A stretch of 63,353 nt of DNA, filler included, from Octopus bimaculoides (GCF_001194135.2; 11 parts of 9 records of this genome joined end to end with filler, not necessarily neighbours in it); one strand, 5' to 3'; shown: positions 16,260 through 63,180, numbered from the whole stretch's first letter. Numbers and translations: made by a program. The notes: a model not told the origin generated them from the letters alone.

Positions 16260-16333
16260 TAGCCATAATAAAACTCCGAGATTCGGATATCGGGGCAGAA
16301 ACCCGCGCCGACATCTCTTCAGTTATCTGGCCA
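16260..16333 (-). ncRNA. Type I hammerhead ribozyme-like motif, near intact
   Basis: CUGAAGA core (16322-16316); stem I 11 bp with one bulge; stem II 8+4 bp; GAA then U instead of A15.1; stem III CUC/GAG; GUU site. Manual fold. Confidence 0.65.
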
Positions 16334-16460
16334 TCGAAAAAATGGCCTATATATATATATNNNNNNNNNNNNNNNNNNNNNNNNNNNNNNNNNNNNNNNN
16401 NNNNNNNNNNNNNNNNNNNNNNNNNNNNNNNNNNNNNNNNNNNNNNNNNNNNNNNNNNNN

Positions 16461-16579
16461 AGCCTAGTACTTATTCTATTGGTCCCTTTTGCTGAACTGC
16501 TAAGTTACGGTGATGTAAACACACCAGCATCAGCTGTCAAGTGATGTTGGGGGAGGAGAACAAACAGACACACAAACAC

Positions 16580-16610
<31 letters not shown>

Positions 16611-16777
16611 TACGATAGGCTTCTTTCAGTTTCCATCTACCAAATCCACTCACAAGGCTTTGGTCGGCCCGAGGCTATAGAGGAAGACACTTGCCCAAGG
16701 TACCACGCAGTGGGACTGAACCCAGAACCATGTGGTTGGTAAGCAAGCTACTTACCACACAGCCACTCCTGCACCTA
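16461..16777 (-). mobile_element. SINE family A, young; 3' end lost in the gap
   Basis: Near identical to 24921-25333 over the head and core. Confidence 0.9.
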
Positions 16778-17403
16778 TAATGAGAAAGTTTTTTTTTTAC
16801 ATTTAGACGTACTTTAGTGTAATTAGTAACACATTTGTCTGGCCTACAGAAGATGCTTGGTATGAGACTGATGTGCAATTTTCAGTCCCTTTTTTTCCCC
16901 ATATTAGGGATTTTTAACTCATAAGCAAGGGAGGCTGAAATCATGTGATCTCATGGTCTAGCACTGGAGGTAACAGGGCTTTATCTCCCTGCTGGCAATA
17001 AAAATAAGAATGCATTTTGCACCAAAACCCAATATCAAAGTTTCTCTCATGACAACTACCACAGTGTAGTTCTTACAAAACATCCAAGTTTAAGTGGTAA
17101 TAAATATCATTTATAGCCCATTTTGCTTCAGAACACATAGCTAAGAAAGACTGATGTACCAATGTGTGTGTGCATGGAAGAGATGTGTTCATGAGCCTGT
17201 ATATATATATATTTATATATGTGTTTATTATGGTAGTTTTTGACTTTAAGAGTCCCACCTAGCATGAGGCATTTATGTGTAGTAATGCCCTTAATATAAA
17301 TAAATATATTTCTAGGGAATAATTAATAATTTTTTTCCCTTACCAGGTTTTTCACGCTAACTACTTGATAAATTCTTATAAAGATTTTATCCTATATTCA
17401 AAT

Positions 17404-17465
<62 letters not shown>

Positions 17466-17762
17466 TAAAAAAAATATAAAAAAGGGTTTTATATGATCGT
17501 GTATAGAGGAATATATTATTTAAAAGAGTTCCAACTCTGTCTGTTTTTTATGTTTCTTTATATTCTTATAAAATTAATGTGGGATATAGAATATGGAATA
17601 TATAATATAAATAGTAAAATGAAATGTAGTATTGAATGTCTTATTGAATATATGAAATATTGAGTATTACATATATAAGGACTAGTATACTTTCCTGCCT
17701 CATGGCAGTCATCAAGGTCCCGTCGTGTGTGTGTGTGTGTGTGTGTATGTATACATATATAC

Positions 17763-17925
17763 AAAGCATCGGCATTAGGAAGGTCATCCAGCTGTAGAAA
17801 TCAGGCCAAAAGTGACATGGAACATGAGGCAATCCAGTAGCTCACTGAATCCTATCACACTATTCAACTCATGCCAGCTTAGAAAATGAACGTGAAATAA
17901 TGATGAAGAAGATGATGATGATGAT
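17763..17925 (+). mobile_element. Repeat family C (retroelement-type 3' end with (GAT)n tail)
   Basis: TAGGAAGGTCATCCAGCTGTAGAAA...CATGCCAGC...GATGATGATG, reverse-matching 49876-50045. Confidence 0.6.
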
Positions 17926-18151
17926 ACATCACTTGTTTCAATGAGACAATCCAGAAATTGCTATACACTGCCGGTCAGAATACACTACCAATTCATTTAT
18001 GTCTATGTCCTTTTTTGTCGTGCTTCTCATAGTTTTAATATGACATTTTGTTATTTATTTATGCCTGTTTTACCATGTTACTACGGATTAAAGGAATATG
18101 TTATTCATTCATTCTTTTACCACTTGATGCCCTTCCTAGTATCAGGATGGC

Positions 18152-18365
18152 ATTTTGCAAGGTAGCAGAATCATTGGCATACCAGGCAAAATGCTTAGTG
18201 GCATTTTGTCCACCTTTACATTCTGAGTTCAAATTCTGCTGAGGTCTACTTTGCTTTTCGTCCTTTTGGGAGTTGATAAAATAAGTACCAGTTGAGGACT
18301 GGGGTCGATGTAATAGACTTAACTCCTCTCCCACACCTGCTGCTCTTGTGCCAAAATATGAAACT
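18152..18365 (+). mobile_element. SINE family B, near full length
   Basis: TAGCAGAATCATTGG (A-box-like), GAGTTCAAATTC (B-box), GATAAAATAAGTACC...CTGGGGTCGAT domain, GTGCCAAAAT tail. Confidence 0.85.
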
Positions 18366-18406
18366 AATATTACTCTAGCATTTGTTTAATCAAAGTTGGG
18401 AAGTTT

Positions 18407-18775
18407 AGGTGCAGGCATGGCTGTCTGATAAGAACTTTGCTCTCAACTACATGATACCGGGTTCAATCCCACTGAGTGGCACCTTTGGCAAGTATCTTTT
18501 ACTATTTGCCCAGGGATGATCAAAGCCTCATGAATGAATTTGGTAGACAGAAACTGAAAGAAGCCCATTTTGTATGTGTGCGCGTGTGGTGTGTGTGTAT
18601 CTATGTTTGTGTGACTATGTTTGTGCTTGTCTCCCACCACTACCACTTGACAATTGGTGTTGGTTTATTTATGTCCCTGTAACTTAGTGGTTTGGCAAAA
18701 AGTGACTAACTGACTGACTGATTGACTAAGTACCAGATTTAAAAGAAAATAAGTGTTAGGGGTTGATTTGTTTAA
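18407..18775 (+). mobile_element. SINE family A, diverged
   Basis: AGGTGCAGGCATGGCTG head, GGGTTCAATCCC B-box, GGCAAGTATCTT core. Confidence 0.8.
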
Positions 18776-19572
18776 CTTCTGCCATATTTGAACTCAAAGT
18801 GCATAGAGGTGAAACAAATACTTGCAAAGCATTCTAATCTTATATTCTAGCAACTCTGCCAGTTTACAATGATGAAAGACAAAAATCAAGAAGGGCAAGA
18901 TTTGAACATGAAATATTAAAGGATGAAACTAAATACCACAGGGTAATAACGGAGGACAATATCACAACATCTACCACATAATATAAAATAGATAAATAAG
19001 TAAATAAACAAGAATCACAGCAAATTTTGGCAAGCAATCTTCAGTGAGATATTAAATAAATTATTGTAGAATCTGCTATATAGTTACTTGACCCATATAA
19101 TGTTTCAGCCAAATTTCTCTTAAGAAACTTCATACCATTATTAAAAGAAGGAGCTCACATCTCATATTTAAAATCTTAGGGACAGTATGCCCACAAAACA
19201 AAAGAGGGGGGTAGCAGCATGTCATGAGTAGATAATCCACATGATAAAAATTGATTCAAAACTGACATGTTGCCTTTCTTTATATCTGTCTGTCTCATCT
19301 ATAAGAGAAACAATGCAATTTTGAGTAGCGATACTGAGTCATTTTTGTGAGCAGCTAAATGTATTTTGAATAAATAATTAGGTGCATATATCAAACAGAC
19401 CCGTTTTATTATTAAAACACATTCTATTTACATAAATACACACACACACACACATATCTATACATATTTGCGTATGTATACGTATAAATATTTATGCATA
19501 CATATATGCACATACACATACATACACATGCACGCACACGCACATACATATAAATATATACACCCACATACA

Positions 19573-19648
<76 letters not shown>

Positions 19649-19748
19649 NNNNNNNNNNNNNNNNNNNNNNNNNNNNNNNNNNNNNNNNNNNNTTAATTAA
19701 TTAANNNNNNNNNNNNNNNNNNNNNNNNNNNNNNNNNNNNNNNNNNNN
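19649..19748. other. Artificial scaffold linker
   Basis: N44-TTAATTAATTAA-N44. Confidence 0.95.
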
Positions 19749-19949
19749 TATATATATATATATATATCCCACCTCCACCACGGCATTAAACAAATGTATA
19801 CCTCCCACGGAAAAAAAGGGTGGATATTAGTTTGTTTTTTTTTGTCTCGTTTGACTACATTTATTTGTTTATAATTATAGAAGCGGTGCTCTATCAAATT
19901 GTCAACGCTATAGAGAAGAACGGAACTGAGTACTAATACGAAAGTGTTA

Positions 19950-22900
19950 ATGACGATTAACCAAACTCATGTCGGATCAGAGGAAATATTAACAATGATA
20001 AATAGTAAAAAAAATGAAAATAATAATATCAGTGATGATAACAATAATAATGAAAGGAAGCGGCTGGAATCTCCCCATGTCCTCGTTGATGATACATCTA
20101 GTGATGGTGTCACAATAAATAACACTGGTAATTGTGCAATCTTATAATCGCTACAACATATGAGTGACAATGAAAAAACAAAATATTGTGAATAACGGTG
20201 GTAATGAAACTTAAGCCCTTGATGGTAACAGCTTTGCACCAGGCAGGCTAAGAGATACTGGTCCGAATCCAGATTGTCGTTATCCAGCAATGCACCAGCA
20301 CATAGGGCATAGATGGAACAAACACGTCAATGCCGTGGTCATGGAGTGTTACTACCTGAGCAATCCTGTAGACGAAAATAGTGCTCCTATTAGGGGATAC
20401 CGACAACGTGTGTATGATCAATGGAGAGAAAGAGAGAATTGTTTCAACTCACGGAACAGAGATTATGTTGATGTCAAGAAAAAGAAATATAATGAGAGTG
20501 ACAAAAGAAAAATCCATGGTTGAAAAGAAGAATACAGGCGGGGTTAGATATGCTCCCGAAAGATATTTCTGTGTTAGACCAAAAAGAAAAGGGAGAGCTT
20601 AAAAGCGAAAAAAAATACATGGCACTGAACAGGAAGTATAATATTGAAAGAAAGGGCCTGAAAGTGGTAATAGAGGAACTGAAACAGTGCCTTGTTGCAA
20701 AGAAAGCAAAGATGGTAAGATACGACCAAAGAATGAAGGGTTACCAGCAGAATTGGTTATTCAGAGTAGAAGAGATTCTTCAAAAAAAAAATGGAGTGTA
20801 CAGAGGAAAAGTTGATACCAGATAACACTGAAAGTCAAAGGTTTTAGAGTGACATCTGGAGCAAAGACAAAGAACACAAGAAGGATGCTCAATGGTTGCA
20901 AGAACTGAAACAAACAGTAGTCTGTCCAAAACAAGCAGTACTAGTCATTTCAGTTAGGGAAATGAAGGAAATCAGCAAAACAATGGGCAACTGGAACGCC
21001 CCGGGACCAGATGGAGTTCGAGATTACTGGATCAAAAGATTTGGTGAATGTCATGTACGAATAGCTGCACAACTCAACACCTTGTTAAATGCCAACCAAG
21101 TAACATCAGAATAGTTGACAATAGGTAGGACAGTGCTGTGCCTGAAAAACATCGAAAAAGGCAATACGGTAGACAATTACAGGTTGATATCCAGCTTGCC
21201 ACTTATGTGGAAATTATTGACTGGAATAGTCACAGAGTCAACATAAGGACATCTGGAAAAAATGGAGTCCTGCTATATGAGCAAAAGGGTTGCAAGCTAG
21301 AGTATAGCGGTACCAAGGATCGACTCCTGATAGACAAAACTGTACTTAGAGATTACAAGAGGAAGAAAACTAACTTAATCATGTCATGGATCGATTATCG
21401 TAAGGCCTACGATATAATCCCACATTCCTGGATTATGGAATGCATGAACCTATTTGGTATTGCTTCGAATGTTGGGCGATTGCTTGGAAAAAGTATGGCG
21501 AAGTGGAGGACAGAACTGACAGCATATGGAAGAAGTTTAGAGACAATAGAGATCAGGAGAGGCATCTTCCAAGGGGACTATATGTCCCCACTGATCTTTG
21601 TACTGTGCGTGATACCACTAATACTGATTCTGAGGAAAGCAAAAGCTGAGTATGTATTCAAGAGCCGCCAACAAAAAGTCAATGACTTGTTATTCATGAA
21701 TGACCTCAAACTCTAAGGCAGTTCCCTCGTTGATATGGTGTTTACCTTCAGTGCTGGTATCGGAATGGAGTTCGGACTGAAAAAGTATGGTATGTCTATC
21801 TTGAAGATCTCAAAGGCATGGATAGGCTAGCCATACCGTCAGAGAAGGTTATGAAGCAAATAGAAAAGACGGGCTATAAGTACTTGGGGATTTGGGAAAT
21901 AGATAAATTGATGGAGACAAAATGAAAAATTTAAGGTAGTGTACTTGCGCAGACAGAGACTGATTCCAAAGTCGAAATTAAACGGACGGAATAAGACTGA
22001 AGTTATCAACACCTGGGCGGTTTCACTCCTTAGTTATGGATCAGGGGTAATCGCATGGACAGTAGACGAACTAAACAGTTTAGACAAAAAGACAAGGAAG
22101 TTGCTGACTAGATATGGGATACTCCACCCAAAAAGTGACACAGACAGACTGAATGTACCAAGAAATAGAGGAGGACGTGGACTGGTTGGATACGAATACA
22201 ACATTAGAGCAGAAGAAAACAACATAGCATGGTTTGTAAAAAATGCTACAGAACCGCTATTATTGGAAGTAAGATCAGACTTGTGTAGAAAGGAAGATTG
22301 CAAAGATAAAGCACTGTACAAGCAATTGAAAATGAATGAAACTGAAAATAATAAAGAAAGATTAGAAGATAAGACAGACAAAGCAAAAAGATGGCTATGG
22401 ATGACTAAAAGGGATTTAAAACTGGAAATGGAGGCCCTAATCAGTGCTGCCCATGAGCAAGCATTAAGAACCAATTACATCAAATATAGAATAGACAACA
22501 CATCAGAAAGTGATAAGTGCAGAATTTGTGGACAAAATGGTGAAACCTTATGACATATTACCAGTCCATGTACGCCACTAGCCAAGAAATAATGTGAGAA
22601 GTCATGACAACGTGGCAAGGATTCTCCATTGGACACTTTGTGACAAGTATGGACTTGACAGAGCAAAAACGTGGTACGGATATAAACCTGAAGGCATCAT
22701 CGAAAATGATAATGCAGAGATCCTATGGGATTTTATGATTCAGTGCCACCTTGAGATAGAGAATAGGAAACCAGACATAGTGTTAATTGAGAAAGAGAGC
22801 AAACAATGCTGAATCATAGATATAGCATGTGCAGCTGATAACAAGGTATATGATAAGCAAGAAAGAAAAGTCGGTAGATATGACAGGTTAGCTTGAGAGG

Positions 22901-23162
22901 TCAAGCAGTTGTGGTTGATGAAAAAGGTGGTAGTAGTACCAATAATTACTGGAGCCCTAGGAACAGTGAGTAAAAGTCTTGAGAAGTATATGGAATAAAT
23001 AGGGGCTGCAATAAGGGTAGAGCAATTGCAGAAAACAGCACTTCTTGGAACCGCACGAATACTCCGGATAGTGCTCGAAAGATAAGGGGTGTTACCTTAG
23101 TTCACTGGTAGTGAACAGCTGACACCGCAGTACAACTCCAGCGTTAGCAGCTGTGCAAAGAC

Positions 23163-23232
<70 letters not shown>
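19950..23232 (+). mobile_element. R4/Dong-clade non-LTR retrotransposon (RT + CCHC + RLE), near full length, decayed; 5' boundary approximate
   Basis: [59 protein letters not shown]...C, HDNVA, KPDIVL..IID, KTALLGTARIL; (TAA)n tail 23163-23232. Confidence 0.92.
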
Positions 23233-24062
23233 NNNNNNNNNNNNNNNNNNNNNNNNNNNNNNNNNNNNNNNNNNNNNNNNNNNNNNNNNNNNNNNNNNNN
23301 NNNNNNNNNNNNNNNNNNNNNNNNNNNNNNNNNNNNNNNNNNNNNNNNNNNNNNNNNNNNNNNNNNNNNNNNNNNNNNNNNNNNNNNNNNNNNNNNNNNN
23401 NNNNNNNNNNNNNNNNNNNNNNNNNNNNNNNNNNNNNNNNNNNNNNNNNNNNNNNNNNNNNNNNNNNNNNNNNNNNNNNNNNNNNNNNNNNNNNNNNNNN
23501 NNNNNNNNNNNNNNNNNNNNNNNNNNNNNNNNNNNNNNNNNNNNNNNNNNNNNNNNNNNNNNNNNNNNNNNNNNNNNNNNNNNNNNNNNNNNNNNNNNNN
23601 NNNNNNNNNNNNNNNNNNNNNNNNNNNNNNNNNNNNNNNNNNNNNNNNNNNNNNNNNNNNNNNNNNNNNNNNNNNNNNNNNNNNNNNNNNNNNNNNNNNN
23701 NNNNNNNNNNNNNNNNNNNNNNNNNNNNNNNNNNNNNNNNNNNNNNNNNNNNNNNNNNNNNNNNNNNNNNNNNNNNNNNNNNNNNNNNNNNNNNNNNNNN
23801 NNNNNNNNNNNNNNNNNNNNNNNNNNNNNNNNNNNNNNNNNNNNNNNNNNNNNNNNNNNNNNNNNNNNNNNNNNNNNNNNNNNNNNNNNNNNNNNNNNNN
23901 NNNNNNNNNNNNNNNNNNNNNNNNNNNNNNNNNNNNNNNNNNNNNNNNNNNNNNNNNNNNNNNNNNNNNNNNNNNNNNNNNNNNNNNNNNNNNNNNNNNN
24001 NNNNNNNNNNNNNNNNNNNNNNNNNNNNNNNNNNNNNNNNNNNNNNNNNNNNNNNNNNNNNN

Positions 24063-24297
24063 TAAAAAAATATTCAGACAAATACATAACAAAAACACCA
24101 GGACTTACAAATATATATAACATACAGAAAATTGCACTACTGGGCACTGCACACATCCTACGCAAAACACTTTCAATACAGTAACCATAAGAGCGTCACA
24201 GCAAACCACAGCACATACCCAAGGCACACAGAGCTGCGCTCGGTAATGAAGTGAAAGCACGTTATAAAAATAAAACTACTGAACAGTAGTAGTAGTA

Positions 24298-24396
<99 letters not shown>
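24063..24396 (+). mobile_element. R4/Dong LINE 3' end (second subfamily) with (TAA)n tail
   Basis: QKIALLGTAHILRKTLSIQ*, a distinct 3' UTR and (TAA)n. 5' part lies in the gap. Confidence 0.85.
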
Positions 24397-25140
24397 GAGA
24401 AGCAGCCACATTTATGACTAACTAGTGCATTAATGAGTAAAGTGTTAGAAAAAATGCCGAACTGGAAAGGCCCAGAACAAGATTTTGTTCAGGAGTACTG
24501 GCTAAAGAAATTTAGTAGTTTACATGGGAGGCTGAGGGAACAACTTCAGGATTGCCTTAATGGAGGAACAATACCAGATTGGATGACTAGAGGGAGAAAA
24601 ATACTCTTTATCCAAGATAAAAGCAAGTGTAATACAGTTAGCAACTGTAGACCAATCACGTACTTACCATTAGTGTGGAAGTTGTTAATAGGAATGCTTT
24701 CTGAAGGCATTTACGAGCACCTCGACAACCAAAATTTACTGCCAAAATAATAGAAAGATTGCAGGAAGAAGGCTAGAGGAACACATGATCTATTATATAT
24801 AGACAAAGCGGTTCTAAATGAAGTAAAAGGTAGAAAGAAGAATTTAACAGTAGCATGGATAAATTATAAGAAGGCCTACGACATGATCCCACACTCATGG
24901 ATAAGTGAATGTTTTAGTATACTCTTACTCTTTACTCTTTTACTTGTTTCTGTCATTTGACTGTGGCCATGCTGGGGCACCGCCTTTAGTTGAGAAAATC
25001 GACCCCAGGACTTATTCTTTGTAAGCCTAGTACTTATTCTATCGGTCTCTTTTTGCCGAACCGCTAAGTTACGGGGACGTAAACACACCAGCCTCGGTTG
25101 TCAATCGAAGTTGGGGGGACAAACACAGACACACAAACAT

Positions 25141-25171
<31 letters not shown>

Positions 25172-26542
25172 CGACGGGCTTCCTTCAGTTTCCGTCTACC
25201 AAATCCACTCACAAGGCTTTGGTCGGCCCGAGGCTATAGTAGAAGACACTTGCCCAAGGTGCCACGCAGTGGGACTGAACCCAGAACCATGTGGTTGGTA
25301 AGCAAGCTACTTACCACACAGCCACTCCTGCATATGTTTAGTATAGCAGACAACATAAGCCAATTAATTAGCTTTAGCATGAAGAAATGGAAATTAGTTC
25401 TCTACTTAGGTGATACGGTCTTAGGAAAAGTTAATACCAAGAAAGGAATTTTCCAAGGAGACACGTTATCCCCTTTAATATTTTTCTTATGTTTGTTTCC
25501 CTCAGTTTAGTATTAAGGAAGGCAGGGCAAAGTATCAGTTCAGAAATACTAAAAGAAAACTTAACCATTTGCTCTACATGGATGACCTGAAGCATTTTAG
25601 TAAGAGTGAAAAAGTGATAGATTCCTTAATACAGACTGTAAGACTCTTCAGCAAAGATTTAAGCATGGAATTTGATATAGATAAGTGTGCAAAATTAGCC
25701 ATGTAAAGGGACAGGTAGTCGGCAGTAAAGGCGTCCAATTAAAATCATTGAAAGAAGGAGACGGTTGTAAGTTTCTAGGGCTATTAGAATCTGACAGAGT
25801 ACTAACTATAGAAATGAAAACAAAAACTGAGAAGGAGTACATCAGAAGGGTGAGGAAGCTAATGAAGTCGAAGCTAAATGGTCCGAATCTAGTGAACGCT
25901 GTAAATGCTTGTGCAGTGTCAATAATTAGATACTCAGCAGCTTTTGTAGAATGGGCAAAAGCTGAAATAGCAAACCTAGAGAGAAGAACCAGGAAGAAAT
26001 TCAATACGAATGGAGAACTCCACCAAGTGTGTCAGCACAGAAAGAATACAAGAAAAGACCTAGGAAGAGTAATCCACTGGGAGTTATGTAGAAAGCTAGG
26101 ATTTGACCATACTGTTGTGGGACTTTAGCATTCAATCTGACAGAGTAATAGAAGGTAATAGGCCTGATTTAGTAGTAGTAAATAAAGAGATTAGAAAGTG
26201 CCAAATAATTGACTTTACAGTCCCAAATGAGGAAAAGCTCAGTATGAGAGGTATAGAAAAATAGCAAAGTACCAGGACCTAATCATTGAACTATAGAGAC
26301 CATGGAAAGTGCCGATAAAATGTATCCCAGTAGTTATAGGTGCATTTGGAACTATACCTAAAGATTTGAACAGGTGGATATAGGAAATATGCATAAAACC
26401 CAGTTTAGTGAAGCTCCAGGAAACCGTGTTTTGAGGAGCAGCTACGATAATGGGGAGGGTTCATGGCATCTAAGGTTACTTGTTGTAGCCCGATATTAGG
26501 AATGGTTCTTTTCCAACAGTCTAATATGTTGTGTGTATATGA

Positions 26543-26583
<41 letters not shown>
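24397..26583 (+). mobile_element. R4/Dong LINE (third subfamily), 5'-truncated, internally deleted, interrupted by a SINE
   Basis: NWKGPEQD, NCRPITYLPLVWKLL, GIFQGDTLSPL, LLYMDDLK, KLNGPNLV, RPDLVV; begins in the previous (TAA)n and ends in its own (TAA)n. Confidence 0.9.
24921..25333 (-). mobile_element. SINE family A, full length, young, inserted in the LINE RT
   Basis: Complete head, core, microsatellite and (AGAGTAA)-like tail; splits the LINE motif WISECFS/MFSIAD. Confidence 0.93.
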
Positions 26584-26584
<1 letters not shown>

Positions 26585-26792
26585 GAGTCAAAATTAAAAG
26601 AAGAGTGCCATTTGCTATCTCGTGAACAATATTTCGACATCTTGCGTGTCTTCCACTGGTTCAAAAAATAAATTTGTCAATCTACTTCATTTTCGTTTAT
26701 ATAGAAAGGATTGAGGTAACTCCTCCTGAAGATATAGAGTCAAAATTAAAAGAAGAGTGCCATTTGCTATCTCGTGAACAATATTTCGACAT
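26583..26792. repeat. 152-bp-period direct repeat (1.4 units visible)
   Basis: 58 nt at 26583-26640 is identical to 26735-26792; truncated by a linker. Confidence 0.85.
26623..26663 (-). ncRNA. Minimal type I hammerhead-like motif with variant core
   Basis: UGAAC-CAGUGGA-A-GACAC-GCAA-GAUGUC-GAAA-UA-UU-GUUCA: 5-bp stem I, GNRA-capped stem II, palindromic stem III; core matches CUGAUGA at 4/7. Confidence 0.5.
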
Positions 26793-26892: not shown

Positions 26893-26926
<34 letters not shown>

Positions 26927-33002: not shown

Positions 33003-34216
33003 GACATACATCAGTTGGTAGACATCCTCGTTTGTCTATTTATTCCAAAGTATTAGAAAGTATTAGAAGAATACATACACATGTAATAACTATGTGTTAC
33101 ACACACATGTACTAATATTACAGAAAAGAGCAGAAAAGAGTAAAAGATCAGATTGTCAGAAGGTAATAAGTTCTTCACGGCCGATTCTGCCAAGAGGCAA
33201 CGCAATCCTTCCTGCCATCTCCATCTCCCCAGTGTTCTGTAGGGATGGGCAAACAGAGTTTAGATGATGAATGTGCCTCTAGGCTTCTTCAGAGGGTCTA
33301 AGTGGTTGGGAGAGTTAATACATATAAGAAACAGTTAACAATAGGTATAGTGTGTTTGGCTTTTCAGAAAGGGCAGAAAAGGAATAGGAGCAAACATGAG
33401 GATGTTAGTGAAGCACAACTTAGTAGAATTATTTGGGTATAGGAAGGGGAATAAGCTAGAGACTTCCCATGATGTATTCCAAGATCCATGTTATTTCGTC
33501 CAATTGTGGATAGGTGAATATAGTCGTTCTCAGGAGGAGTTTTTTTCAGGAAGGGTGAATTTAGGCAGTAGTACGCATTATGTTTACATAGAAACTCACA
33601 TTATGTTTACATAGAAATACATTGGTGGATTTGAAGATATGGTCCGTGTTACGGAGGTGAATATTTATATGTAAAGTGCAACGTTGCGGATGGTATGGCA
33701 TAAGCAACCTATGATGGTGAAATCATTATGGGAAAATTTGGTATATCAGTGTACTAATGAGAGTAAGGAACCAGGTAGGACCAAAGTGCGGTGTTAGTGT
33801 TCATTATTTTTTGCCGATCAACAAGTCTCGAAATTCCTATGTGTGTTGGGGTGGGGATCATGGTCAGTCCTATAACCTAATTGGTCAGCTATTTCTTTTT
33901 TGAAAACCATGACGTGGTTCCGGTTTATTGATGGTTAACCGATAAAACAAAGCAAATCAAAACAAATCAAGACAAAACAAAACAAAACAAGTGCTTGGAG
34001 ATGGCATGGAGGATTTCGTTGGCGCTTGGCAGAAACGGCCGTAAGGAACTTAGTACCTTCTGATAATCTGATCTTTTGCTCTTTTCTGTTCTTTTCTGTA
34101 ATATTAGTACATGTGTGTGTAACTCATATTTATTACATGTGTATGTATTCTTCTAATACTTTCTAATACTTTGGAATAAATAGACAAACGAGGATGTCTA
34201 CCAACTGATGAATGTC
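33003..34216 (-). mobile_element. 5'-truncated Penelope-like element with 221-bp inverted terminal (pLTR) duplication
   Basis: 33003-33223 is the high-identity reverse complement of 33996-34216; hammerhead motif at the 3' pLTR; weak GIY-YIG-region remnant (FTIIGCLCHTIRNV) inside. Confidence 0.7.
33170..33298 (-). ncRNA. Type I hammerhead-like motif of the Penelope pLTR, decayed
   Basis: CUGAAGA-A-GCC(U)AGAGGCA...UGCCUCUUGGC-A-GAAU-CGGCCG-UG. The inverted copy (~34030-34050, +) keeps canonical GAAA-CGGCCG-UA but lacks the CUGA half. Confidence 0.65.
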
Positions 34217-34622
34217 ATTTTTATATCTTCTCCATTTTCTTATTTGCCGTATAAATTTAGGGTAAACCACTTTTTACCCCTGCCCATATATAACACTCAA
34301 TTGAGAAATTACCAAGCAATAACCAGCACTTGAGTATTAATAATTGGGCACATTACCAGCGGTATACTGGATAGGCACTATCCCTTAGTTGGTTGGTTTC
34401 CCAACCTCTAACTCACACAGAAATATATATATATATATATATATATATANNNNNNNNNNNNNNNNNNNNNNNNNNNNNNNNNNNNNNNNNNNNNNNNNNN
34501 NNNNNNNNNNNNNNNNNNNNNNNNNNNNNNNNNNNNNNNNNNGCGAGCGTTGGCAAATGTAATATAACAAATTTTAAGAAATGCCCTATTCCTTCCTAAG
34601 ACACAGGAGTAATGTGTGTGTG

Positions 34623-37502: not shown

Positions 37503-37579
<77 letters not shown>

Positions 37580-37619
37580 TTAAGGAATGGAGAAAACGCA
37601 TGTTATAATTGCATACTTT

Positions 37620-52368: not shown

Positions 52369-52399
<31 letters not shown>

Positions 52400-53863: not shown

Positions 53864-53897
<34 letters not shown>

Positions 53898-54490
53898 CAT
53901 ACATACATACAAACATACATACATACATACATACGTCACACATACATACATACGTCACACATACATACATANNNNNNNNNNNNNNNNNNNNNNNNNNNNN
54001 NNNNNNNNNNNNNNNNNNNNNNNNNNNNNNNNNNNNNNNNNNNNNNNNNNNNNNNNNNNNNNNNNNNNNNNNNNNNNNNNNNNNNNNNNNNNNNNNNNNN
54101 NNNNNNNNNNNNNNNNNNNNNNNNNNNNNNNNNNNNNNNNNNNNNNNNNNNNNNNNNNNNNNNNNNNNNNNNNNNNNNNNNNNNNNNNNNNNNNNNNNNN
54201 NNNNNNNNNNNNNNNNNNNNNNNNNNNNNNNNNNNNNNNNNNNNNNNNNNNNNNNNNNNNNNNNNNNNNNNNNNNNNNNNNNNNNNNNNNNNNNNNNNNN
54301 NNNNNNNNNNNNNNNNNNNNNNNNNNNNNNNNNNNNNNNNNNNNNNNNNNNNNNNNNNNNNNNNNNNNNNNNNNNNNNNNNNNNNNNNNNNNNNNNNNNN
54401 NNNNNNNNNNNNNNNNNNNNNNNNNNNNNNNNNNNNNNNNNACATACATACATACATACATACATACATACATACATACATACATACATA
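53620..54490. repeat. (ACAT)n tetranucleotide array with recurring ACGTCACAC variants; central gap
   Basis: Directly visible. Confidence 0.92.
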
Positions 54491-55620: not shown

Positions 55621-56024
55621 TACAGATATATAGATATGTAAGCATAATAATAATAATAGAATATAGATAAAAATAATAGTAGAATATAGAAAAAAGACGT
55701 TTTTAAAAATTGAAAAGATAAAGAAAGTAATAGGCATTAAAATGAGTTTTACGTAACATGTTACAGGAAAATAAGGGACTAAATGCATATCTAGCGTAAA
55801 CACTACTTTTTCCTGATGATGGGGGCATTCTATGGAAATGAACCATAAGACTCAGATGTAATCTGGATGAATGTAGGCCTGAAACGATCGTTGGAGGGAT
55901 TTTCCTCTTACATGTTACCCAAAAACTCTTTTTAATGCCTATTACTTTCTCTATATTATATTTTGAATTTTTAAAAACGTCTCTTTTCTGTATTCTATTA
56001 TCATTTTTATCTATATTCTATTAA

Positions 56025-56105
<81 letters not shown>

Positions 56106-56127
56106 GTTTACATATCTATATATCTAT
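55621..56127. mobile_element. Foldback element (~150-bp inverted arms, one carrying a (TTA)n expansion) around a 126-bp spacer; probably Penelope-derived
   Basis: 55621-55772 is the reverse complement of 55899-56127 apart from the TTA run; a hammerhead motif fills the spacer. Confidence 0.7.
55803..55900 (+). ncRNA. Type I hammerhead ribozyme-like motif with canonical core
   Basis: CUGAUGA 55813-19; branched stem II; GAAA 55881-84; palindromic stem III ACGAUCGU; GUU site at 55892; wobble-rich 6-bp stem I (UUUUUC/GGAGGG). Confidence 0.65.
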
Positions 56128-56346
56128 ATGTCCTTGTATATTTTTTGTACTCGTTTATTTTTATATTTCTATATTTTTATATTTCTAATATATCAATATA
56201 TGTTTCAGATTGGACATTTCTTATTTTATCCTAATTAAACCCGTATATGTATATGTTAATCGTAGTCTGCCGGATTTGAACCTTTTCTATTGTCTCTATT
56301 ATACTTGTCTAGCACTTCAGGTTCGACTTCTATGTTTTATATATAT

Positions 56347-56446
56347 NNNNNNNNNNNNNNNNNNNNNNNNNNNNNNNNNNNNNNNNNNNNTTAATTAATT
56401 AANNNNNNNNNNNNNNNNNNNNNNNNNNNNNNNNNNNNNNNNNNNN
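56347..56446. other. Artificial scaffold linker
   Basis: N44-TTAATTAATTAA-N44. Confidence 0.95.
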
Positions 56447-56623
56447 GTAAAAGCACAATAAATAAGTATAATATAATACAAAGTAAATATCATTAGGTAA
56501 TGATTATAAAACGGCTACACGTGTTTCATAACCAATTTTCAAATAGAAAGAATATTTAAATCGATTAAAACTACCGAAAATCAATTCTATTCAAAAATAT
56601 AGCTAATCTTCAAGTCAGAATAC

Positions 56624-56665
<42 letters not shown>

Positions 56666-56869
56666 TATAATTATAATAATAAAAGAATGTATATATCAAC
56701 CAACAATAAATAACAAACGAATATATATAAAATTCTTATTATATTAAGATAGAAAAATATTATTAAAAATATCAAATTTATAAACGTTCCAAATTAACTT
56801 TACGTTTATTATAATATAAGCTAACAGGTATATTAACGAAACATAAAAAAATTCCTGCAACTGTTATGG

Positions 56870-57448
56870 TTTAATGTGTTGGCTGCAACGAAGGAGATTT
56901 GAAGCCTGCTGACTTTCCATAGGCCTCAGAGTTAAATCTGCCACCTACATTGAGGTCCTAGAAATAATTGTTAAGCTCTCGATAGACAGTAAATGCATTG
57001 GAATGCCATATGTGTTTCATTAAGACTCTGCACTATCACACATGGCGCTACTAAGATAGGAATGGAAGGCTGAACATTTTCATGATCACATAACCCCTAA
57101 CATTTGACCTAATTCCTGACAATTCAATGCATTAGACTATTACATGTAAAGCCTTGTTGAGAGAGACGTCAGTGAAAACGCCCATAACACCACAGATTCT
57201 AAGAAAGCTTCTTCAGTCAGAAAAACTAACAAAATGAATCATGACCACGTGATTCGAGCGTGTAGATGTTTTAGAACTCATATCGAAACAGTTGTTGAAG
57301 CTGAAGGTATCTTTATTGAATAACATTATAGTAAAAAAAGGTTCAGTGTTATCCTCATAAGCATTTTTGAGGAATGAAGTTATCTGTTTTAATAAATCTT
57401 TTTCTTTATAAACACATATCTGTCCTCAGATATCTTACGCACACTGTG
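56870..57448 (+). mobile_element. DD37D/maT-like element, 3' half with putative TIR
   Basis: YVFH*DSA...NALDYYM...DHVIRACRCFRTHIETVVEAEG; ends ...CTTACGCACACTGTG before TA. Confidence 0.75.
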
Positions 57449-57467
57449 TATATATGTATGTATATAT

Positions 57468-57518
<51 letters not shown>

Positions 57519-57528
57519 NNNNNNNNNN

Positions 57529-57580
<52 letters not shown>

Positions 57581-58272
57581 TATGTAATACAGATATATAT
57601 ATATATATATGTGTGTGCATGTATGTCTGCATGTATGAATATATGCATGTCTCTGTACTTTGTTTCTGTGTGGGTATGGCTGAGTATGCATGAAGGTATT
57701 ATCGAATTTTAATAATATTGATATTTACCATATAATTTCAACTATCTCTTTTATTCCTGGCATATTACTAATATACAAAAAAATTATAAATTTTTAAGGT
57801 CGCTATTATTTTCACCAAAACAACAAAATTTCCATGAAATTTCCTAATAACAATTCATGTCTTATTTTACAGTTTGCATGGTGGATCGTAAGTTTGAAAA
57901 AGAGGAAAATGTTGTCTATTCGCAATACCTCGAATGCTAGCAGAAAATTCCATGTACGGTACACATTAATCTCTATAGTATTAACAGAATAAATATCAAT
58001 AAAGTATAATATATGGAAATCAGCGTCATATATAGACTCAAAATATCGACTTACCTTTACCTTTTTGCTATTAAACATGCGCACTTTTGTGTTTGATCAT
58101 GAAATGCTGCTGTATTTGCTTATATTAACATCGACGACTATCTACATATTAACATATTAATACGCAGAAATATAGTTAACGTATGTGTGCGCATTAAATC
58201 CCAAATATGTTATCACTTCCTTTGAACTATTACCTTTATATCTGCTCCCTAGGATTCCCCTCGTAGCCACTC

Positions 58273-58321
58273 TGAACCCTGATGGATTGGTCCTCAGTAG
58301 ACCTATCGGAATATCGGTTCA
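58273..58321 (+). ncRNA. Minimal type I hammerhead-like motif with two core mutations
   Basis: UGAACC-CUGAUG-GAUUGGUC-loop-GACCUAUC-GGAA-UA-UC-GGUUCA: 6-bp stem I, 8-bp stem II (one mismatch); A9 missing and A13 to G. Confidence 0.55.
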
Positions 58322-58415
58322 AATCATTTGAATGCTACTAAATGTTTTCCATATCGAGATTCTGTCAATTTCTTCTGCTGATGTCACACACTGGCACACA
58401 CACACACACACACTG

Positions 58416-58447
<32 letters not shown>

Positions 58448-58547
58448 NNNNNNNNNNNNNNNNNNNNNNNNNNNNNNNNNNNNNNNNNNNNTTAATTAAT
58501 TAANNNNNNNNNNNNNNNNNNNNNNNNNNNNNNNNNNNNNNNNNNNN
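58448..58547. other. Artificial scaffold linker
   Basis: N44-TTAATTAATTAA-N44. Confidence 0.95.
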
Positions 58548-58802
58548 AATGTTGAATACCTTGTATACCACAATTTTTTCCTTAATTGCGTTGACTGCCT
58601 CGGGTGGTGGAATTAGCTTCGTTTCACCATCCACCTTTTGTACATATTTCCGGTATGTATACAGACTTTCTTTTGACATTTTTATTTCAATTGAGTCAAT
58701 TCCAACGGCCTGTGCAAAACTTGGTTTTCCTTTGGAAACACTTTTACATACTCTTTCTTCCTCCATGGGAAGGACACTTTCCGCTACAATTAGAGTAGCC
58801 AT
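58548..58802 (-). CDS. Probable LINE (L1/Tx1-like) ORF1 N-terminus, cut by a linker
   Basis: Open 85-codon frame MATLIVAESVLPMEEERV...KPSFAQAVG...VVYKVFN; the SFAxAV motif is typical of LINE ORF1 N-termini. Could alternatively be a host exon. Confidence 0.45.
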
Positions 58803-60099
58803 ATTTGTCAAAAGACAAAAACACAAATAAAGTTTTTTACATGGAATTTTTTCGCCCCGTAGGGCGAAAATAACTGTATACCAACAGTTATTTAAACAGT
58901 TGTACAATACAGAGAGTTAGACAGACACGAACTCACACCGCAACAGCAAACAAAATCTCGATGGAAAAATTAATATATCCTCCTTAGCACAAGAAAAAGA
59001 CGTGTGTTGCTTCTGCAAAATGTCAGAAGTAATGGAGATTAAATACGCTTTACACCGCTTAAACTGCCAAAGGAGTAAGTGTAAACAACTGAATACTTGT
59101 CAGTGATTGGTTGAAATTATCGAAATAAGACAATTTTTTACATGAAAAAAATTCGAATACAAAATTTTTTTATGTTCTATAACACAAAATAGATAAGTAT
59201 ACGAAGTTTGAAAGTCTTTCGGTACCAAAAACACTACATAAAACATAAATGAAAACTGGTGCCCCCGTTTTGAACAAGATCCGCAATCTTCAGCTGCACA
59301 AAAATGTAGAAAAATTACAGTAGAATAGACATATTATAATTGTGGCAAGATATACTAAATAAGCCCTTCTCTTTTTAAGACGTTAGACAGTGATTTGAGG
59401 TGGGCAATGGATTGAATAATATAATGTTCATTTGTCGGACATTTATTTTATGTCTAGTTTGAGTTCGAATCCTGCCAGGATCGATAAGAACTACAAATAT
59501 TGATTTTTAAGATGTGTGAAATTGCAACGAAAAAGAATTTCTTAAGTTTGCACTTCCTTTTGAAATTCTGATGAGAACATGTTTAAGTTTTAAAACATTT
59601 CAGTCAATACTAGATTAATACTGAAATATGATTCAAATTGTATTCAATTCAATTTGTTATACGAAATTGTAATTTAGATTCTCTGAATTTTTATTTTATT
59701 TATGAAAAGATGAAGATATAAACTTAATTACAAACTTTAAATGGAATAAATTAAGAATATTTGTTGAATTTCTTTCTTCGAAAACAGGAAATTTTTACAT
59801 ATTTTGAATTGCACTTCACTTCGCTTGGTTTATGAAAATTTATTCTAGCTAACGTGCTCAAGACGTTCACTTCGGGTCCACGTGGTTCTCAGTTCAATCC
59901 CACAGCAGAACTCGCTGGACTTAATTTCTCACAGCCTCGATTTGGGCAGGTAAACGTTAACTGTTCTTTTTCTGTTTCTGCTACTTGCTCTTTTCTGACT
60001 GAAATTTTTGAGTACCAAATCCACATATGGGTATGTGCATACTATTCGGCGAAGTAGCGATCTTTGATTTTAGGTGCATATATCTGCAGGTATTATCTT

Positions 60100-60415
60100 C
60101 TATCGTTTTACTTGTTTCAGTCATTGGATTGTGGCCATGCTAGGGCACCACCTTGAAGGGTTCAGTCGAACAATTCGACTCCAGTACTTATTAAAAAAAA
60201 AAAATCTGATACTTATTCTATCGGCGTCTTTTGCCGGGGACGTAAACAAACCAACACCGGTTGTCAGGCAACGGTCGGGTAAACACGCACACAATTTCCC
60301 TCTGCCAAATTCACTGATAAGGTTGACTTGGGACTATTTTAGAAGACACTTGTCCAAGGTGCCGCTGAACCCAAGATCACACGATTGGGAAGCAAACTTA
60401 TTAGTCACAGCGCTA
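60100..60415 (-). mobile_element. SINE family A, diverged with internal deletions
   Basis: TTTTACTTGTTTCAGTCATTGGATTGTGGCCATGC...AGAAGACACTTGTCCAAGGTGCC. Confidence 0.8.
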
Positions 60416-61067
60416 ACGGGAAAATACAAAATATACACAAAACCAAAATTCGTCCGAGTATGTATATGAAATTTTTATTTATCGGAAAAAAAAAACAGTT
60501 TTCAAAAGTAAACAAAAATGGTTTAAAAAGCAAAGAAGTAAATAGATAATTTAAATAAAAAGGAATGCACATTCATTCATAGAATTCCGGGACATTGGTA
60601 TTCTTTTCTTAAAAAACTTTTGAGGCATGCCAAAACAGAACTTAGACAACAGACAAGAACCTAGCCTGCGACGAACATCTGCATTCCAGAACCCGGCTCG
60701 GCATGGAAGCCCTAACATCACGACGAGTGATCGCTCCGCCACACACGCCTCAACTTCTTACATACAGACTGTTACTATTGTGTACTCTAAGAACTGGCAA
60801 ATTCTTATATGTGTTACTGACTCTTTTTCTATCTGCTGTATCTCACGCATACACATACATGTATCACTTACACACACTATTTTCTTTACACGACGGCCTG
60901 TTTTTATTGTGTTTTCATTATGTCGCATACAATCACACACAGACATACAATTTAATGCTACAATAAATATTACAGTTATTCATCTTTATCGGTTGTGTTC
61001 TATCGTCTTCATTACTGGCCATCTACGAATTCACTATGTTATCGAAGTATAACATATTTATATATCA

Positions 61068-61093
61068 TCTATATATATAAAAATTAGAATGTG

Positions 61094-61140
<47 letters not shown>

Positions 61141-61381
61141 GTGAATCCTTAAAACTCGAGAACTACGCAACCAATTTCATTCAAATTTTACACATGCCTT
61201 ACTTAGGGTTCCAGTTGTGTTTTAGTCAAAAAAATTTTTTAAACTTCTTGCAGAGTTCGAGCACACGGCAACATAATATCTCCTCCACTATTTAAGTATT
61301 ACGTGTCAAAAGTGAAACAAAAACACTCATGTCAAATACTTTCACTTTAAAAATGAAACTATTCCACTAACTGAAACAATC
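61068..61381 (+). mobile_element. Helitron-like (DINE-1/Lep1-style) non-autonomous element, 5' part
   Basis: A|TCTATATATATAAAA start, (GTCT)n, then CAACCAATTTCATTCAAATTT; cut by a linker. Confidence 0.65.
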
Positions 61382-61481
61382 NNNNNNNNNNNNNNNNNNN
61401 NNNNNNNNNNNNNNNNNNNNNNNNNTTAATTAATTAANNNNNNNNNNNNNNNNNNNNNNNNNNNNNNNNNNNNNNNNNNNN
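61382..61481. other. Artificial scaffold linker
   Basis: N44-TTAATTAATTAA-N44. Confidence 0.95.
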
Positions 61482-62594
61482 GAAGAAATGGAATGGTGAA
61501 ATTATATGTTCCTTGTGTTTCTCATCTACATTCTGTGGCCTTTATATAAAAAGTTATTCGATGATTGAAGTTCAGATTTGCGAACTGGACACTCAAGGGA
61601 AACTGATTTTCTGGGTTATGTCGATTACAATAGCTTTCACACGTTCCTTTAGGTAGTAAAGGTAGATCCCTGTAGAGTGGTTTATAAAGTTTTGTGTGGC
61701 TATTTTTATCTTTCTTCTTTCCTGCCTTGCATTGTTGACTGTATTTTATTTAAGGATATAGTTTTAATAATTTCTGACCAGAGTTGCCACTCTTAATCAT
61801 TTCCAATTGATAACGGCTAAGGAGATAGAAACATCGATCTCTGGGAATCGTGGTAGATTGCAACACTGGAGTGATATCGTATTTTTCAACCTTTTTACCA
61901 TAAGAGAAAAATTTCTCCCCGGCAACTACAGTCAATTTGCCTTTTAGCAGTTGAAATACATCACAAACGTATTTTAATTAAACTATACAAAAACTTAAAA
62001 ACAACAAAGGGATAAAAAGATTATCTTATGAACATCATTAGCTTAGTGCTATTTCTGCGATAAGATGCAGTGTGCTCATACAGCAGCCATGCTTCCATTT
62101 GCCAAATCGCTATTTCGGCAACGTAAACAAATCAGCACAGATCGCTCACCTGTAGAGATTCAAATCTAAACACAAACACAAAAACAAATGCACTAACATA
62201 TATATATGTTTATATATTATGTAACATTTACAAACATACACACAAATTCATAATTTATATGCTACAAAGGATTACAATATGTGCGACAATAAAAATTTAC
62301 AAAATGTTTTTAAGATTTAAATGGTGGTGTTTATCAGAAGATACTTTCCTACACAACATTGCAACCAAGCAGGTGGCTGGTCAAAATTACTTTGAAATTA
62401 CAAAGTGAAAGAGAAGAACATACATACATACATACATACATACATACATACATGAAACGCACTGCCTAAATACCAATCTTGAAAAATTAGGTTTCCCAAA
62501 ACCAGAAAGGAGAATGCTAATTCGAAGATTACAGATTCAATCTATCACGGGAACTGCAAAAATCTGTAAGACTTTCCAGAAGTCTATCATTAAA

Positions 62595-63050
62595 ATATAC
62601 ATGAGCATGTCTAGATATGCAACAATATGTATGAGAATACATACATAAAGCAAAACATACAAATCTGCAAATATACATACATACATACATACATACATAC
62701 ATACATACACACATACATACAAAATACCTTGTTGTTGATGTTGAAATTCCAATGAAGGTGCCTTGGGGCTCTTTCTCTATTGGCAAGAAATCTTGAAATG
62801 AAACTGGATAATGACATGCATACATAAGAACTTGTCCTGATATGCAAGTGTATGATTGACATGAAACAAAACATACAAATCTGCACGTATACGTACATAT
62901 ATACATACGTAAATACGGAGGTACATACATACATACATGCACGCATGCAAACATACATACATACATGCATACATACATACATACATACATACACACATAC
63001 ATACAAAATACCTTGCCATTGAGGTCGAAATTCCAATGAAGGAGCCTTGG
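62595..63050. repeat. Diverged tandem duplication containing (ATAC)n
   Basis: CAAAACATACAAATCTGCA...CAAAATACCTTG...GAAATTCCAATGAAGG(T/A)GCCTTGG occurs twice (~62618-62766 and ~62841-63050). Confidence 0.8.
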
Positions 63051-63134
63051 ATCTATGTTAGAAACTGGCACTTTCTCTACATTATTTACATTATTTACAT
63101 CCGACGGATATTTGTCCTCATCTTGTTTGTTGTT

Positions 63135-63180
63135 AACACAACGTTTTCGCTGATATACCCTCCAGCCTTCTTCAGGTGTC
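63135..63180 (-). ncRNA. Minimal type I hammerhead-like motif in a probable Penelope pLTR fragment (~63075-63210)
   Basis: GACAC-CUGAAGA-AG-GCUG-loop-CAGC-GAAAA-CG-UU-GUGUU: 5-bp stem I, 4-bp stem II; one A too many after G12. Confidence 0.6.

What the first reader, a model, noticed from the sequence alone, without database searches (positions are those of the whole stretch)
16260..63180. Seven hammerhead-ribozyme-like folds of several unrelated sequence families in 63 kb
Seen: type I hammerhead architecture (stem I - CUGANGA - stem II - GAAA - short palindromic stem III - NUH - stem I) at 16260-16333(-), 26623-26663(-), 33170-33298(-), 37620-37696(-), 55803-55900(+), 58273-58321(+) and 63135-63180(-). 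Their stems have different sequences. Established: Penelope-like pLTRs and non-LTR retrozymes carry minimal type I hammerheads that work as dimers through a palindromic stem III. Inference: this genome holds a diverse, probably unannotated set of ribozyme-bearing retroelements. Most copies here are decaying; six of seven have at least one core deviation.
Basis: partly seen in the sequence, partly recalled or inferred. Interest (0 to 1): 0.75.

Follow-up and report, generated by a model that had tools for sequence, protein, structure and literature searches.

The report
Seven Penelope retroelement ends with hammerheads
The seven motifs are worn or cut-off ends of seven different families of jumping sequences (six traced to Penelope-type retroelements) that carry a predicted self-cutting RNA, which is a known arrangement; two stand out, one whose end holds a tRNA-like, likely promoter and one young tandem family that has spread with altered catalytic letters.

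Summary
All seven motifs are present. Motif scans alone cannot tell six of them from shuffled DNA, but each is a copy of a different repeat family. Five families have the canonical hammerhead core; two (26623, 58273) do not. Five families lie downstream of Penelope-like RT/GIY-YIG remnants, one (26623) aligns with the end of such a family, and one (37620) has no ORF found. Fixed 3' ends, ~35-nt tails, inverted 5' arms and microsatellite targets fit Penelope insertions. This is known biology; an octopus Penelope hammerhead is in print (PMC8557442, File S2). Two features were not found in print. (1) The 63135 family is a Poseidon-type end repeat with a tRNA-derived head at which most short copies start; the scan found this before on other DNA. 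(2) The 26623 family is a young 152-bp tandem retrozyme-like unit whose core is fixed at U6 (A4 in the youngest copies), so it either spreads without cutting or uses a variant core. Cleavage is untested. The window is a pack about eightfold richer in these families than other loci.

The parts
16241..16351 (-). F1: 3' end stub of a Hydra-type PLE; hammerhead 16260-16333 (A15.1>U in this copy)
   Evidence: 14 of 14 relatives have CUGANGA, 11 of 14 the full core, palindrome and stem I; RT, CxCx5C linker and GIY-YIG upstream on the same strand in L100/L101
26582..26792 (-). F2: 1.4 units of a 152-bp tandem retrozyme-like family (cut by the pack joint); hammerhead scaffold 26623-26663 with core CAGUGGA; 3' end into (TAT)n
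   Evidence: homology to the end of ORF-linked family F8
33003..33961 (-). F3: 3' part of a PLE with a long 3' UTR; hammerhead 33170-33298 with long stem II (A15.1>U, H17>G in this copy)
   Evidence: colinear over 3.5 kb in L103/L104 with a GIY-YIG remnant 2.6-3 kb upstream
33998..34259 (+). Inverted 5' arm of the F3 insertion
37567..37693 (-). F4: piece of a young non-coding hammerhead family; 5' half of the core replaced by (CA)n in this copy
   Evidence: 33 relatives 100% identical over 96 bp; 13 of 14 relatives have the full core; no ORF within ~8 kb upstream in 3 of 3 loci
55772..56033 (+). F5: 3' end stub of a Hydra-like PLE; hammerhead 55803-55900 with intact core
   Evidence: RT/linker or EN upstream on the same strand in L102 and L092
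55644..55775 (-). Inverted 5' arm of the F5 insertion
58192..58400 (+). F6: old PLE end stub; hammerhead remnant 58273-58321; most relatives read CUGYUGA...GGAGUGUA
   Evidence: 0 of 11 relatives with full core; 0 genome matches to a canonical version of this 3' half; decayed Hydra-like EN ~1 kb upstream, colinear in L307/L308
63073..63228 (-). F7: body of a Poseidon-type PLE end repeat; hammerhead 63135-63180. Its tRNA-like head and 5' fold-back lie 1.5 kb upstream in the genome, outside the window
63236..63353 (-). 3' tail of a LINE inserted into the internal (AAT)n of the F7 copy, separating head from body
   Evidence: 92% identical to window 24197-24314; the same tail sits in the (AAT)n of L119

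Best explanation
The seven motifs are separate, mostly damaged copies of seven repeat families, and six of the families are, or likely derive from, the hammerhead-bearing terminal repeats (pLTRs) of Penelope-like retroelements. Likely mechanism: a PLE RT/GIY-YIG protein binds the 3' repeat RNA, nicks a (TA)n, (CA)n or (TAT)n microsatellite, starts reverse transcription inside the RNA at one of two sites about 35 nt apart, and usually stops early or folds back. That leaves short stubs that always keep the hammerhead and often carry an inverted 5' arm. The minimal hammerheads are predicted to cut only as dimers, through the palindromic stem III. F7 likely makes its own short RNA polymerase III transcripts from a tRNA-derived head placed just after the ORF stop, and the element's protein copies them in trans like SINEs. 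F2 is a 152-bp non-coding tandem offshoot of a Neptune-type pLTR. Its ribozyme is most likely crippled (about 60%), so its arrays would be copied from read-through tandem transcripts without self-cleavage. Shown: families, ORF linkage, ends, core states. Inferred: clades (motifs only), Pol III use, dimer cleavage, loss of activity.
For: Families. Canonical cores in relatives of F1, F3, F4, F5, F7. ORF upstream, same strand: F1, F5 (30, 34), F3 (34, 50), F6 (90), F7 (45, 50; 11 of 12 best RT loci carry the head downstream; an 855-aa stop-free frame with Pfam RVT_1 E=1.2e-10). F2 aligns with F8 from the hammerhead through both 3' ends, and 6 of 15 F8 loci have a GIY-YIG-type remnant 250-800 nt upstream of the query start. 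F2 3' ends cluster at unit positions 51-59 (8) and 90-97 (11, one an internal junction) among 24 ungapped of 30 matches. F7 has an inverted arm in 21 of 30 genome-order loci. Literature: min-HHR hallmarks (PMC4209133), tails, inversions, (TA)n targets and the Hydra CxCX5C linker (PMC8557442), internal RT starts and cleavage not needed for insertion in vitro (PMC11167929), retrozymes as pLTR derivatives (bioRxiv 10.64898/2026.07.22.740005).
Against: No cleavage or circle was shown: RNA reads gave no place where many molecules begin or end on F7 or F2, and no joint on F2. F4 has no ORF partner. GIY-YIG calls for F1, F7 and F8 rest on motif reading and tblastn among my own loci; Pfam was below cut-off or blank. 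Clades were not tested with a tree. Few copies are fully intact: F7 1 of 30 in genome order; F3 5 of 14 and F5 4 of 14 by my strict test. ARAGORN finds no tRNA in the F7 head at default settings (0 of 12 loci) and only scattered pseudogene calls at lowered thresholds. Six of seven motifs do not beat shuffles on their own.
Confidence: 0.85

Rival explanations
1. The motifs belong to an active, PLE-independent circular-RNA (retrozyme or viroid-like) system in which each unit is cut out, circularised and copied.
For: F2 is a short tandem unit with one hammerhead scaffold per unit; F4 is young and has no ORF nearby; the antisense strand of the youngest F2 unit has a perfect-core type II-like motif (98 of 200,000 shuffles).
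Against: Five families are ORF-linked PLE ends. F2 has PLE-type tails and inversions and aligns with a PLE end. The antisense motif is lost in older F2 copies and varies at its U4 and G12 in reads. No circle joints in two raw-read RNA runs, though depth was low (96 and 119 reads).
Confidence: 0.08
2. F2's CUGU(U/G)GA and CAGUGGA cores are working, slow or ion-dependent hammerhead variants, so F2 follows the standard cut-and-circularise retrozyme route. This changes only the F2 part of the best explanation.
For: Stems I and II stay 96.5% paired across 12 distinct rows, and loop II, N7 and H17 (free positions) vary while G12-A14 do not. U6 persists in both subfamilies and in reads of a coded organism. 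A natural A6C variant cuts slowly and prefers Mn2+ (PMC3088659, PMC7151607).
Against: Rows were picked with a pattern that fixes one strand of each stem; covariation is weak (12 of 500 shuffles; one pair). A second core change (U4>A) swept the youngest copies. Position-6 change cut the Mg2+ rate about 100,000-fold at 0.3 mM in a test ribozyme (0.30 vs 3.6e-6 per min, PMC7151607 Table 1).
Confidence: 0.25
3. The motifs are chance matches in AT-rich, microsatellite-rich DNA.
For: Shuffles give as many relaxed-descriptor hits as the window; no Rfam hit.
Against: Relatives restore exactly the deviating core letters in five families. The F2 scaffold arises in 1 of 200,000 shuffles of its unit and is shared with a canonical sister family.
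Confidence: 0.02

Closest known systems
[quoted passage not shown]
   Same: Short stem I, long stem II, unpaired base between 9 and 10.1, palindromic stem III, many dissimilar families per genome, mostly single truncated copies
   Different: F2 and F6 carry a changed position 6 as the family state; the parts read report only the U3-A8 core covariation
Hydra-clade PLEs, including Hydra-1_Obim (Craig et al. 2021, PMC8557442; passages, section 11, supplement part 2 of 59)
   Same: F1 has the CxCX5C linker, (TA)n target and a hammerhead of the same layout as the listed Hydra-1_oBim motif (odd-length stem III palindrome, GAUGUC-type stem II start)
   Different: Motifs from F1-F5 were not found in the supplement text as family hammerheads (line breaks could hide them), so these look like further families; F3, F5, F6 are assigned by weak similarity only
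Poseidon PLE PAc of Anolis (Frangieh et al. 2024, PMC11167929; passages read)
   Same: Hammerhead overlapping the start of the reading frame, 30-40-nt optional tail from two RT start sites, inverted 5' arms
   Different: F7 has a tRNA-derived head with A and B boxes and an internal (AAT)n between the ORF stop and the hammerhead, and most copies start at the head
Animal non-LTR retrozymes (PMC7229834, passages; bioRxiv 10.64898/2026.07.22.740005, parts 1 and 3 of 5 and passages)
   Same: F2 is a non-coding tandem unit with one type I hammerhead scaffold per unit, homologous to a PLE pLTR
   Different: 152 nt is below the ~170-400 nt range; the core is non-canonical and would fail those papers' descriptors; circles not shown
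Bcep176 A6C natural hammerhead variant (PMC3088659, PMC7151607; passages read)
   Same: Natural change at core position 6
   Different: Phage type and A6C; F2 has A6U, with U4A in the youngest copies, in hundreds of genomic copies

Membership tests
Minimal type I hammerhead (PLE type) | Core C3U4G5A6N7G8A9 / G12A13A14A15.1 / U16.1H17 in the family | tested here: met
   Met for F1, F3, F4, F5, F7 (CUGANGA in 14/14, 13/14, 13/14, 13/14, 10/11 relatives)
Minimal type I hammerhead (PLE type) | Same core in F2 and F6 | tested here: not met
   F2: 0 of the first 100 of 231 matches canonical; 92 of the first 100 of 145 U4-type matches have U6, 5 have A6, of which 2 are F2 members. F6: 0 of 11 full, 0 canonical genome matches
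Minimal type I hammerhead (PLE type) | Palindromic stem III, unpaired base 9/10.1, G10.1-C11.1 pair | tested here: met
   Read from alignments: palindromes in F1, F2, F3, F4, F5, F7; F3 and F5 have an extra mismatch before the first G-C pair, F4 closes stem II weakly
Minimal type I hammerhead (PLE type) | Self-cleavage, as a dimer | not testable with these tools
   No end pile-up in two fragmented RNA-seq runs, which is not a test of cleavage
Minimal type I hammerhead (PLE type) | Match to an Rfam hammerhead model | tested here: not met
   0 gathering-level matches in window plus 19 loci; none at E<=10 on one F7 copy with G12>A
EN+ Penelope-like element | RT plus C-terminal GIY-YIG ORF upstream of the pLTR | tested here: met
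   F1, F5, F7 (RT and EN), F3, F6 (EN remnant), F8 for F2; not met for F4
EN+ Penelope-like element | 5' truncation, inverted 5' arm, optional 30-40-nt tail, microsatellite target | tested here: met
PLE clades (Hydra, Neptune, Poseidon) | Position in an RT tree | not tested
   Assigned by motifs only: CxCX5C for Hydra from PMC8557442 section 11; Neptune and Poseidon RT motifs recalled
Non-LTR retrozyme (F2) | Non-coding tandem units, one type I hammerhead per unit, pLTR homology | tested here: met
   (scaffold present, core variant)
Non-LTR retrozyme (F2) | Complete canonical hammerhead in consecutive units; circular RNA | tested here: not met
   Core non-canonical; no circle joint seen at low depth (inconclusive for circles)
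tRNA-derived SINE (short F7 copies) | tRNA-like head with A and B boxes, sharp 5' start | tested here: met
   A box from base 8, anticodon-like loop at 32-38, B box at 53-61 (sequence); 24 of 30 genome-order heads lack the ORF sequence upstream; 2,950 exact head matches, control 0
tRNA-derived SINE (short F7 copies) | Separate non-autonomous family that shares only a 3' tail with its partner | tested here: not met
   The head is part of the coding element itself: 11 of 12 best RT loci carry it
tRNA-derived SINE (short F7 copies) | Pol III transcription | not testable with these tools
   Reads are abundant in both directions with no start pile-up

The most novel reading that the evidence does not exclude
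One genome holds two natural experiments on how Penelope RNAs travel. F2 is a retrozyme lineage that fixed A6U and then U4A yet kept making fresh tandem, tailed, inverted insertions, so either retrozyme arrays need no self-cleavage or circle, or CUGUKGA/CAGUGGA is an undescribed working hammerhead core. F7 is a protein-coding Penelope element that carries its own Pol III cassette and sheds SINE-like, ribozyme-bearing copies by the ten thousand.
Probability: 0.45. Interest if true: 0.68.

Novelty: new variant of a known kind. Interest (0 to 1): 0.47.

Why it matters
Hammerheads at Penelope ends are known, so the seven motifs as such are ordinary. What they do is still open: PMC8557442 calls their function unclear, PMC11167929 found cutting unnecessary for insertion in vitro, and only 1 of 9 frog retrozyme dimers cut in the 2026 preprint. 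F2 with its canonical sister F8 is a matched natural series (CUGAAGA, CUGUUGA, CUGUGGA, CAGUGGA on one scaffold) that makes the question testable with short transcripts. It also shows that descriptor-based retrozyme counts miss young families. F7 would be a route by which a coding retroelement produces SINEs from within.

Tried and rejected
Rfam: E-value scan of the window was swamped by microsatellite miRNA matches; gathering scan blank; F7 copy blank. Strict and relaxed descriptors did not separate six sites from shuffles. One search's pattern fits only the F6-type 3' half, so it says nothing on F2. F7 as a separate SINE, or as a hammerhead stub that lands in SINE tails: rejected. The GIY-YIG fragment 3 kb upstream of the window's F2 copy (L110) as part of that insertion: rejected; it has its own 3' end and an assembly gap follows, though it later matched F8. 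The Pfam-positive GIY-YIG in L095 lies downstream of its F5 motif and was not used as linkage. Antisense type II hammerhead in F2: not conserved. ORF for F4: none in 20 loci of +-1.5 kb or 3 loci of ~8 kb, bar one weak distant hit (19.6% identity, E=0.001). One search had stem I set one column off; one search replaces it. Sequencing-run search: no RNA holder listed; the two raw-read runs came by species label of a coded organism that may not be the window's species. Paper searches: hammerhead + Penelope + octopus, 1 work; hammerhead + SINE + tRNA-derived + Penelope, 2 unrelated; Penelope-like + RNA polymerase III + tRNA-derived + non-autonomous, 0; no listed paper with A6U for a hammerhead; none with 'inactive ribozyme'. 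No earlier scan note matched F2 by sequence or words. No structure or complex prediction was run; it would not bear on the question.
Full report
Setting. The window is a pack of 11 stretches from a 2.34-Gb animal genome, 29-38% GC in most stretches and full of microsatellites and gaps. It looks like an octopus genome; that is my inference from the repeat landscape and C2H2 arrays (recalled) and from earlier scan notes, not a tool result.

Observation. The seven motifs are present, and six of seven deviate in the core, as stated. As isolated motifs they are weak. A strict descriptor found 1 of 7 plus one other site (shuffle mean 0.77). A relaxed one put five of them on top but found as many in shuffles (7 vs 6.3); only 16260 stood out (3 of 226). 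Rfam found nothing at gathering level.

Families. Each site has 40 or more matches in the own genome (candidates: F1 2075, F2 1304, F3 346, F4 949, F5 72, F6 136, F7 2007; only 40 scored each). Aligning the 12-15 best loci, which are biased towards the damaged window copy, restores CUGANGA in 14/14 (F1), 13/14 (F3), 13/14 (F4), 13/14 (F5) and 10/11 (F7) relatives. Full core, palindrome and stem I are present in 11, 5, 13, 4 and 3 of these. F2 and F6 give 0/14 and 0/11. In loci fetched for other families these motifs occur at about 16 per Mb, against about 120 per Mb in the window (rough, not de-duplicated, families defined from the window). F7's 11 per Mb would mean some 20,000 copies.

Link to Penelope-like elements. 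F1: RT, a CxCx5C linker and GIY-YIG lie upstream on the same strand, with an inverted F1 piece at the 5' end (L100, L101). CxCX5C marks the Hydra clade (PMC8557442 section 11), and that paper's File S2 lists an octopus Hydra hammerhead of the same layout. F5: RT/linker in L102 and EN in L092, upstream. F3: two loci are colinear over 3.5 kb, with an EN remnant 2.6-3 kb upstream. F6: two loci are colinear over 1.5 kb with a decayed Hydra-like EN. F4: young and canonical, with a microsatellite-like 5' region and no ORF found. Inverted 5' arms are common; the window's F3 and F5 copies have them.

F7. A 75-nt head with tRNA spacing (A box from base 8, anticodon-like loop at 32-38, B box at 53-61) precedes (AAT)n and the hammerhead. 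Head was followed by body in 26 of 30 best head matches and 26 of 30 genome-order matches (two of these are one insertion). In the latter set 6 of 30 had the ORF end directly upstream, 21 of 30 an inverted arm and 1 of 30 a fully intact hammerhead. The head pattern has 2,950 exact matches, control 0. Upstream lies a Poseidon-type ORF that ends just before the head. 11 of the 12 best RT loci carry the head, and one locus has an 855-aa stop-free frame that runs through the 5' hammerhead (RVT_1 E=1.2e-10). So the head is part of the coding element's end repeat, and most short copies begin at it. Pol III transcription is the simplest reading but is inferred. ARAGORN gives no default call. The window's copy has its head and 5' fold-back 1.5 kb upstream, split off by a LINE in the (AAT)n. 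Reads of two RNA runs of a coded organism cover F7 densely (7,292 of 12.9 million and 5,763 of 12.0 million), in both directions, with no start or end pile-up. I reached this reading before looking at earlier notes; the scan holds 15 similar findings in at least 3 genomes. Two paper searches found no description. The Schistosoma SM-alpha repeat, with a tRNA-like promoter and a hammerhead, is a recalled precedent that I did not read.

F2. A 152-bp unit in arrays of at least 2-4 units, often next to assembly gaps. Copies are nearly identical: apart from a few subfamily sites, variation is at most about 6% per position over 55-87 unit copies. 3' ends fall at unit positions 51-59 or 90-97 into (TAT)n or (TAA)n in 19 of 24 ungapped matches, while 5' ends are scattered or inverted: the Penelope tail. 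The scaffold has a 5-bp stem I, an unpaired A, G10.1-C11.1, GAA, an AUAU palindrome and H17; it arises in 1 of 200,000 shuffles of the unit. With the core left free, 231 matches were found; the first 100 all have U6, 99 have A4 and none is canonical. An older subfamily keeps U4: of the first 100 of 145 matches (control 3), 92 have U6, 5 A6, 2 C6, 1 G6 (counted by hand). The five A6 places are two F2 copies, two copies of a sister family F8, and one unrelated sequence. F8 has CUGAAGA in most copies, GIY-YIG remnants upstream in 6 of 15 loci, Neptune-like RT motifs (recalled), and aligns with F2 from the hammerhead through both 3' ends. The likely order is canonical, then A6U, then U4A, with amplification at each step. 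Stems stay paired (96.5%) but covariation is weak and partly built in by my selection. Position-6 change strongly lowers Mg2+ cleavage in other hammerheads (PMC3088659; PMC7151607), and cleavage is not needed for insertion by an Anolis PLE in vitro (PMC11167929). I put 'crippled' at about 60%, 'working variant' at about 25%, and the rest on other routes such as DNA-level array growth. RNA depth was low (96 and 119 reads), with no joints or ends.

Comparison and verdict. The collection matches the minimal hammerheads of PLE pLTRs (PMC4209133) and, for F2, retrozymes as pLTR derivatives (bioRxiv 10.64898/2026.07.22.740005; PMC7229834). Octopus SINEs named in PMC4824008 (passages) could not be compared by sequence. 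Supplements of the bioRxiv preprint were closed, and Repbase, Dfam and Lunse et al. 2017 were not seen; any of them may list these families or cores. The value lies in F2 and F7. Novelty: new variant of a known kind. Interest 0.47.

Noticed in passing
window 26698-26734 (+) region, antisense of the F2 unit: A perfect-core type II-like hammerhead motif (GAAA, UH, 4-bp stem I, CUGAAGA) lies on the opposite strand and coincides with the 35-nt tail; 98 of 200,000 shuffles, but not kept in older copies or in reads.
   Followed up: yes
L249-L263 (e.g. G000:C4:147046177-147047420): An eighth hammerhead family (F8), canonical core, ORF-linked, Neptune-like, not in the window; closest relative of F2.
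   Followed up: partly
window 45837-48200 (+): 787-aa open frame with about 25 tandem C2H2 zinc fingers.
   Followed up: no
window 960-1978 (+): Broken Tc1/mariner-like transposase frames (label recalled); a further mariner-like piece at 12917-13246.
   Followed up: no
window 19749-26580: Two broken LINEs of an R4/Dong-like type (label recalled) ending in (TAA)n; F2 sits in one tail, and the same LINE tail lands in the internal (AAT)n of F7 copies (window 63236-63353, L119), so the two element types share targets.
   Followed up: partly
L110:3000-4201 (-): A GIY-YIG fragment of the F8 type followed by a CUGAUGA motif and its own 3' end into (ATT)n, 3 kb from the window's F2 copy.
   Followed up: partly
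L038 (RT-like frames on the strand opposite F1): RT fragments of another retroelement type beside an F1 copy; no Pfam match.
   Followed up: no
L046:1508-1529, run X24: A cluster of A>G differences in 3-4 reads on the F2 unit, which looks like RNA editing but cannot be told from alleles without matched DNA.
   Followed up: no
F2, F5 and F6 3' ends: All three end at similar short UCUAU-type motifs on either side of a hairpin, which may be a shared signal for where reverse transcription starts.
   Followed up: no
L233 (G000:C2:108098000-108107000): Three near-identical older F2 pieces within 7 kb, in both orientations.
   Followed up: no
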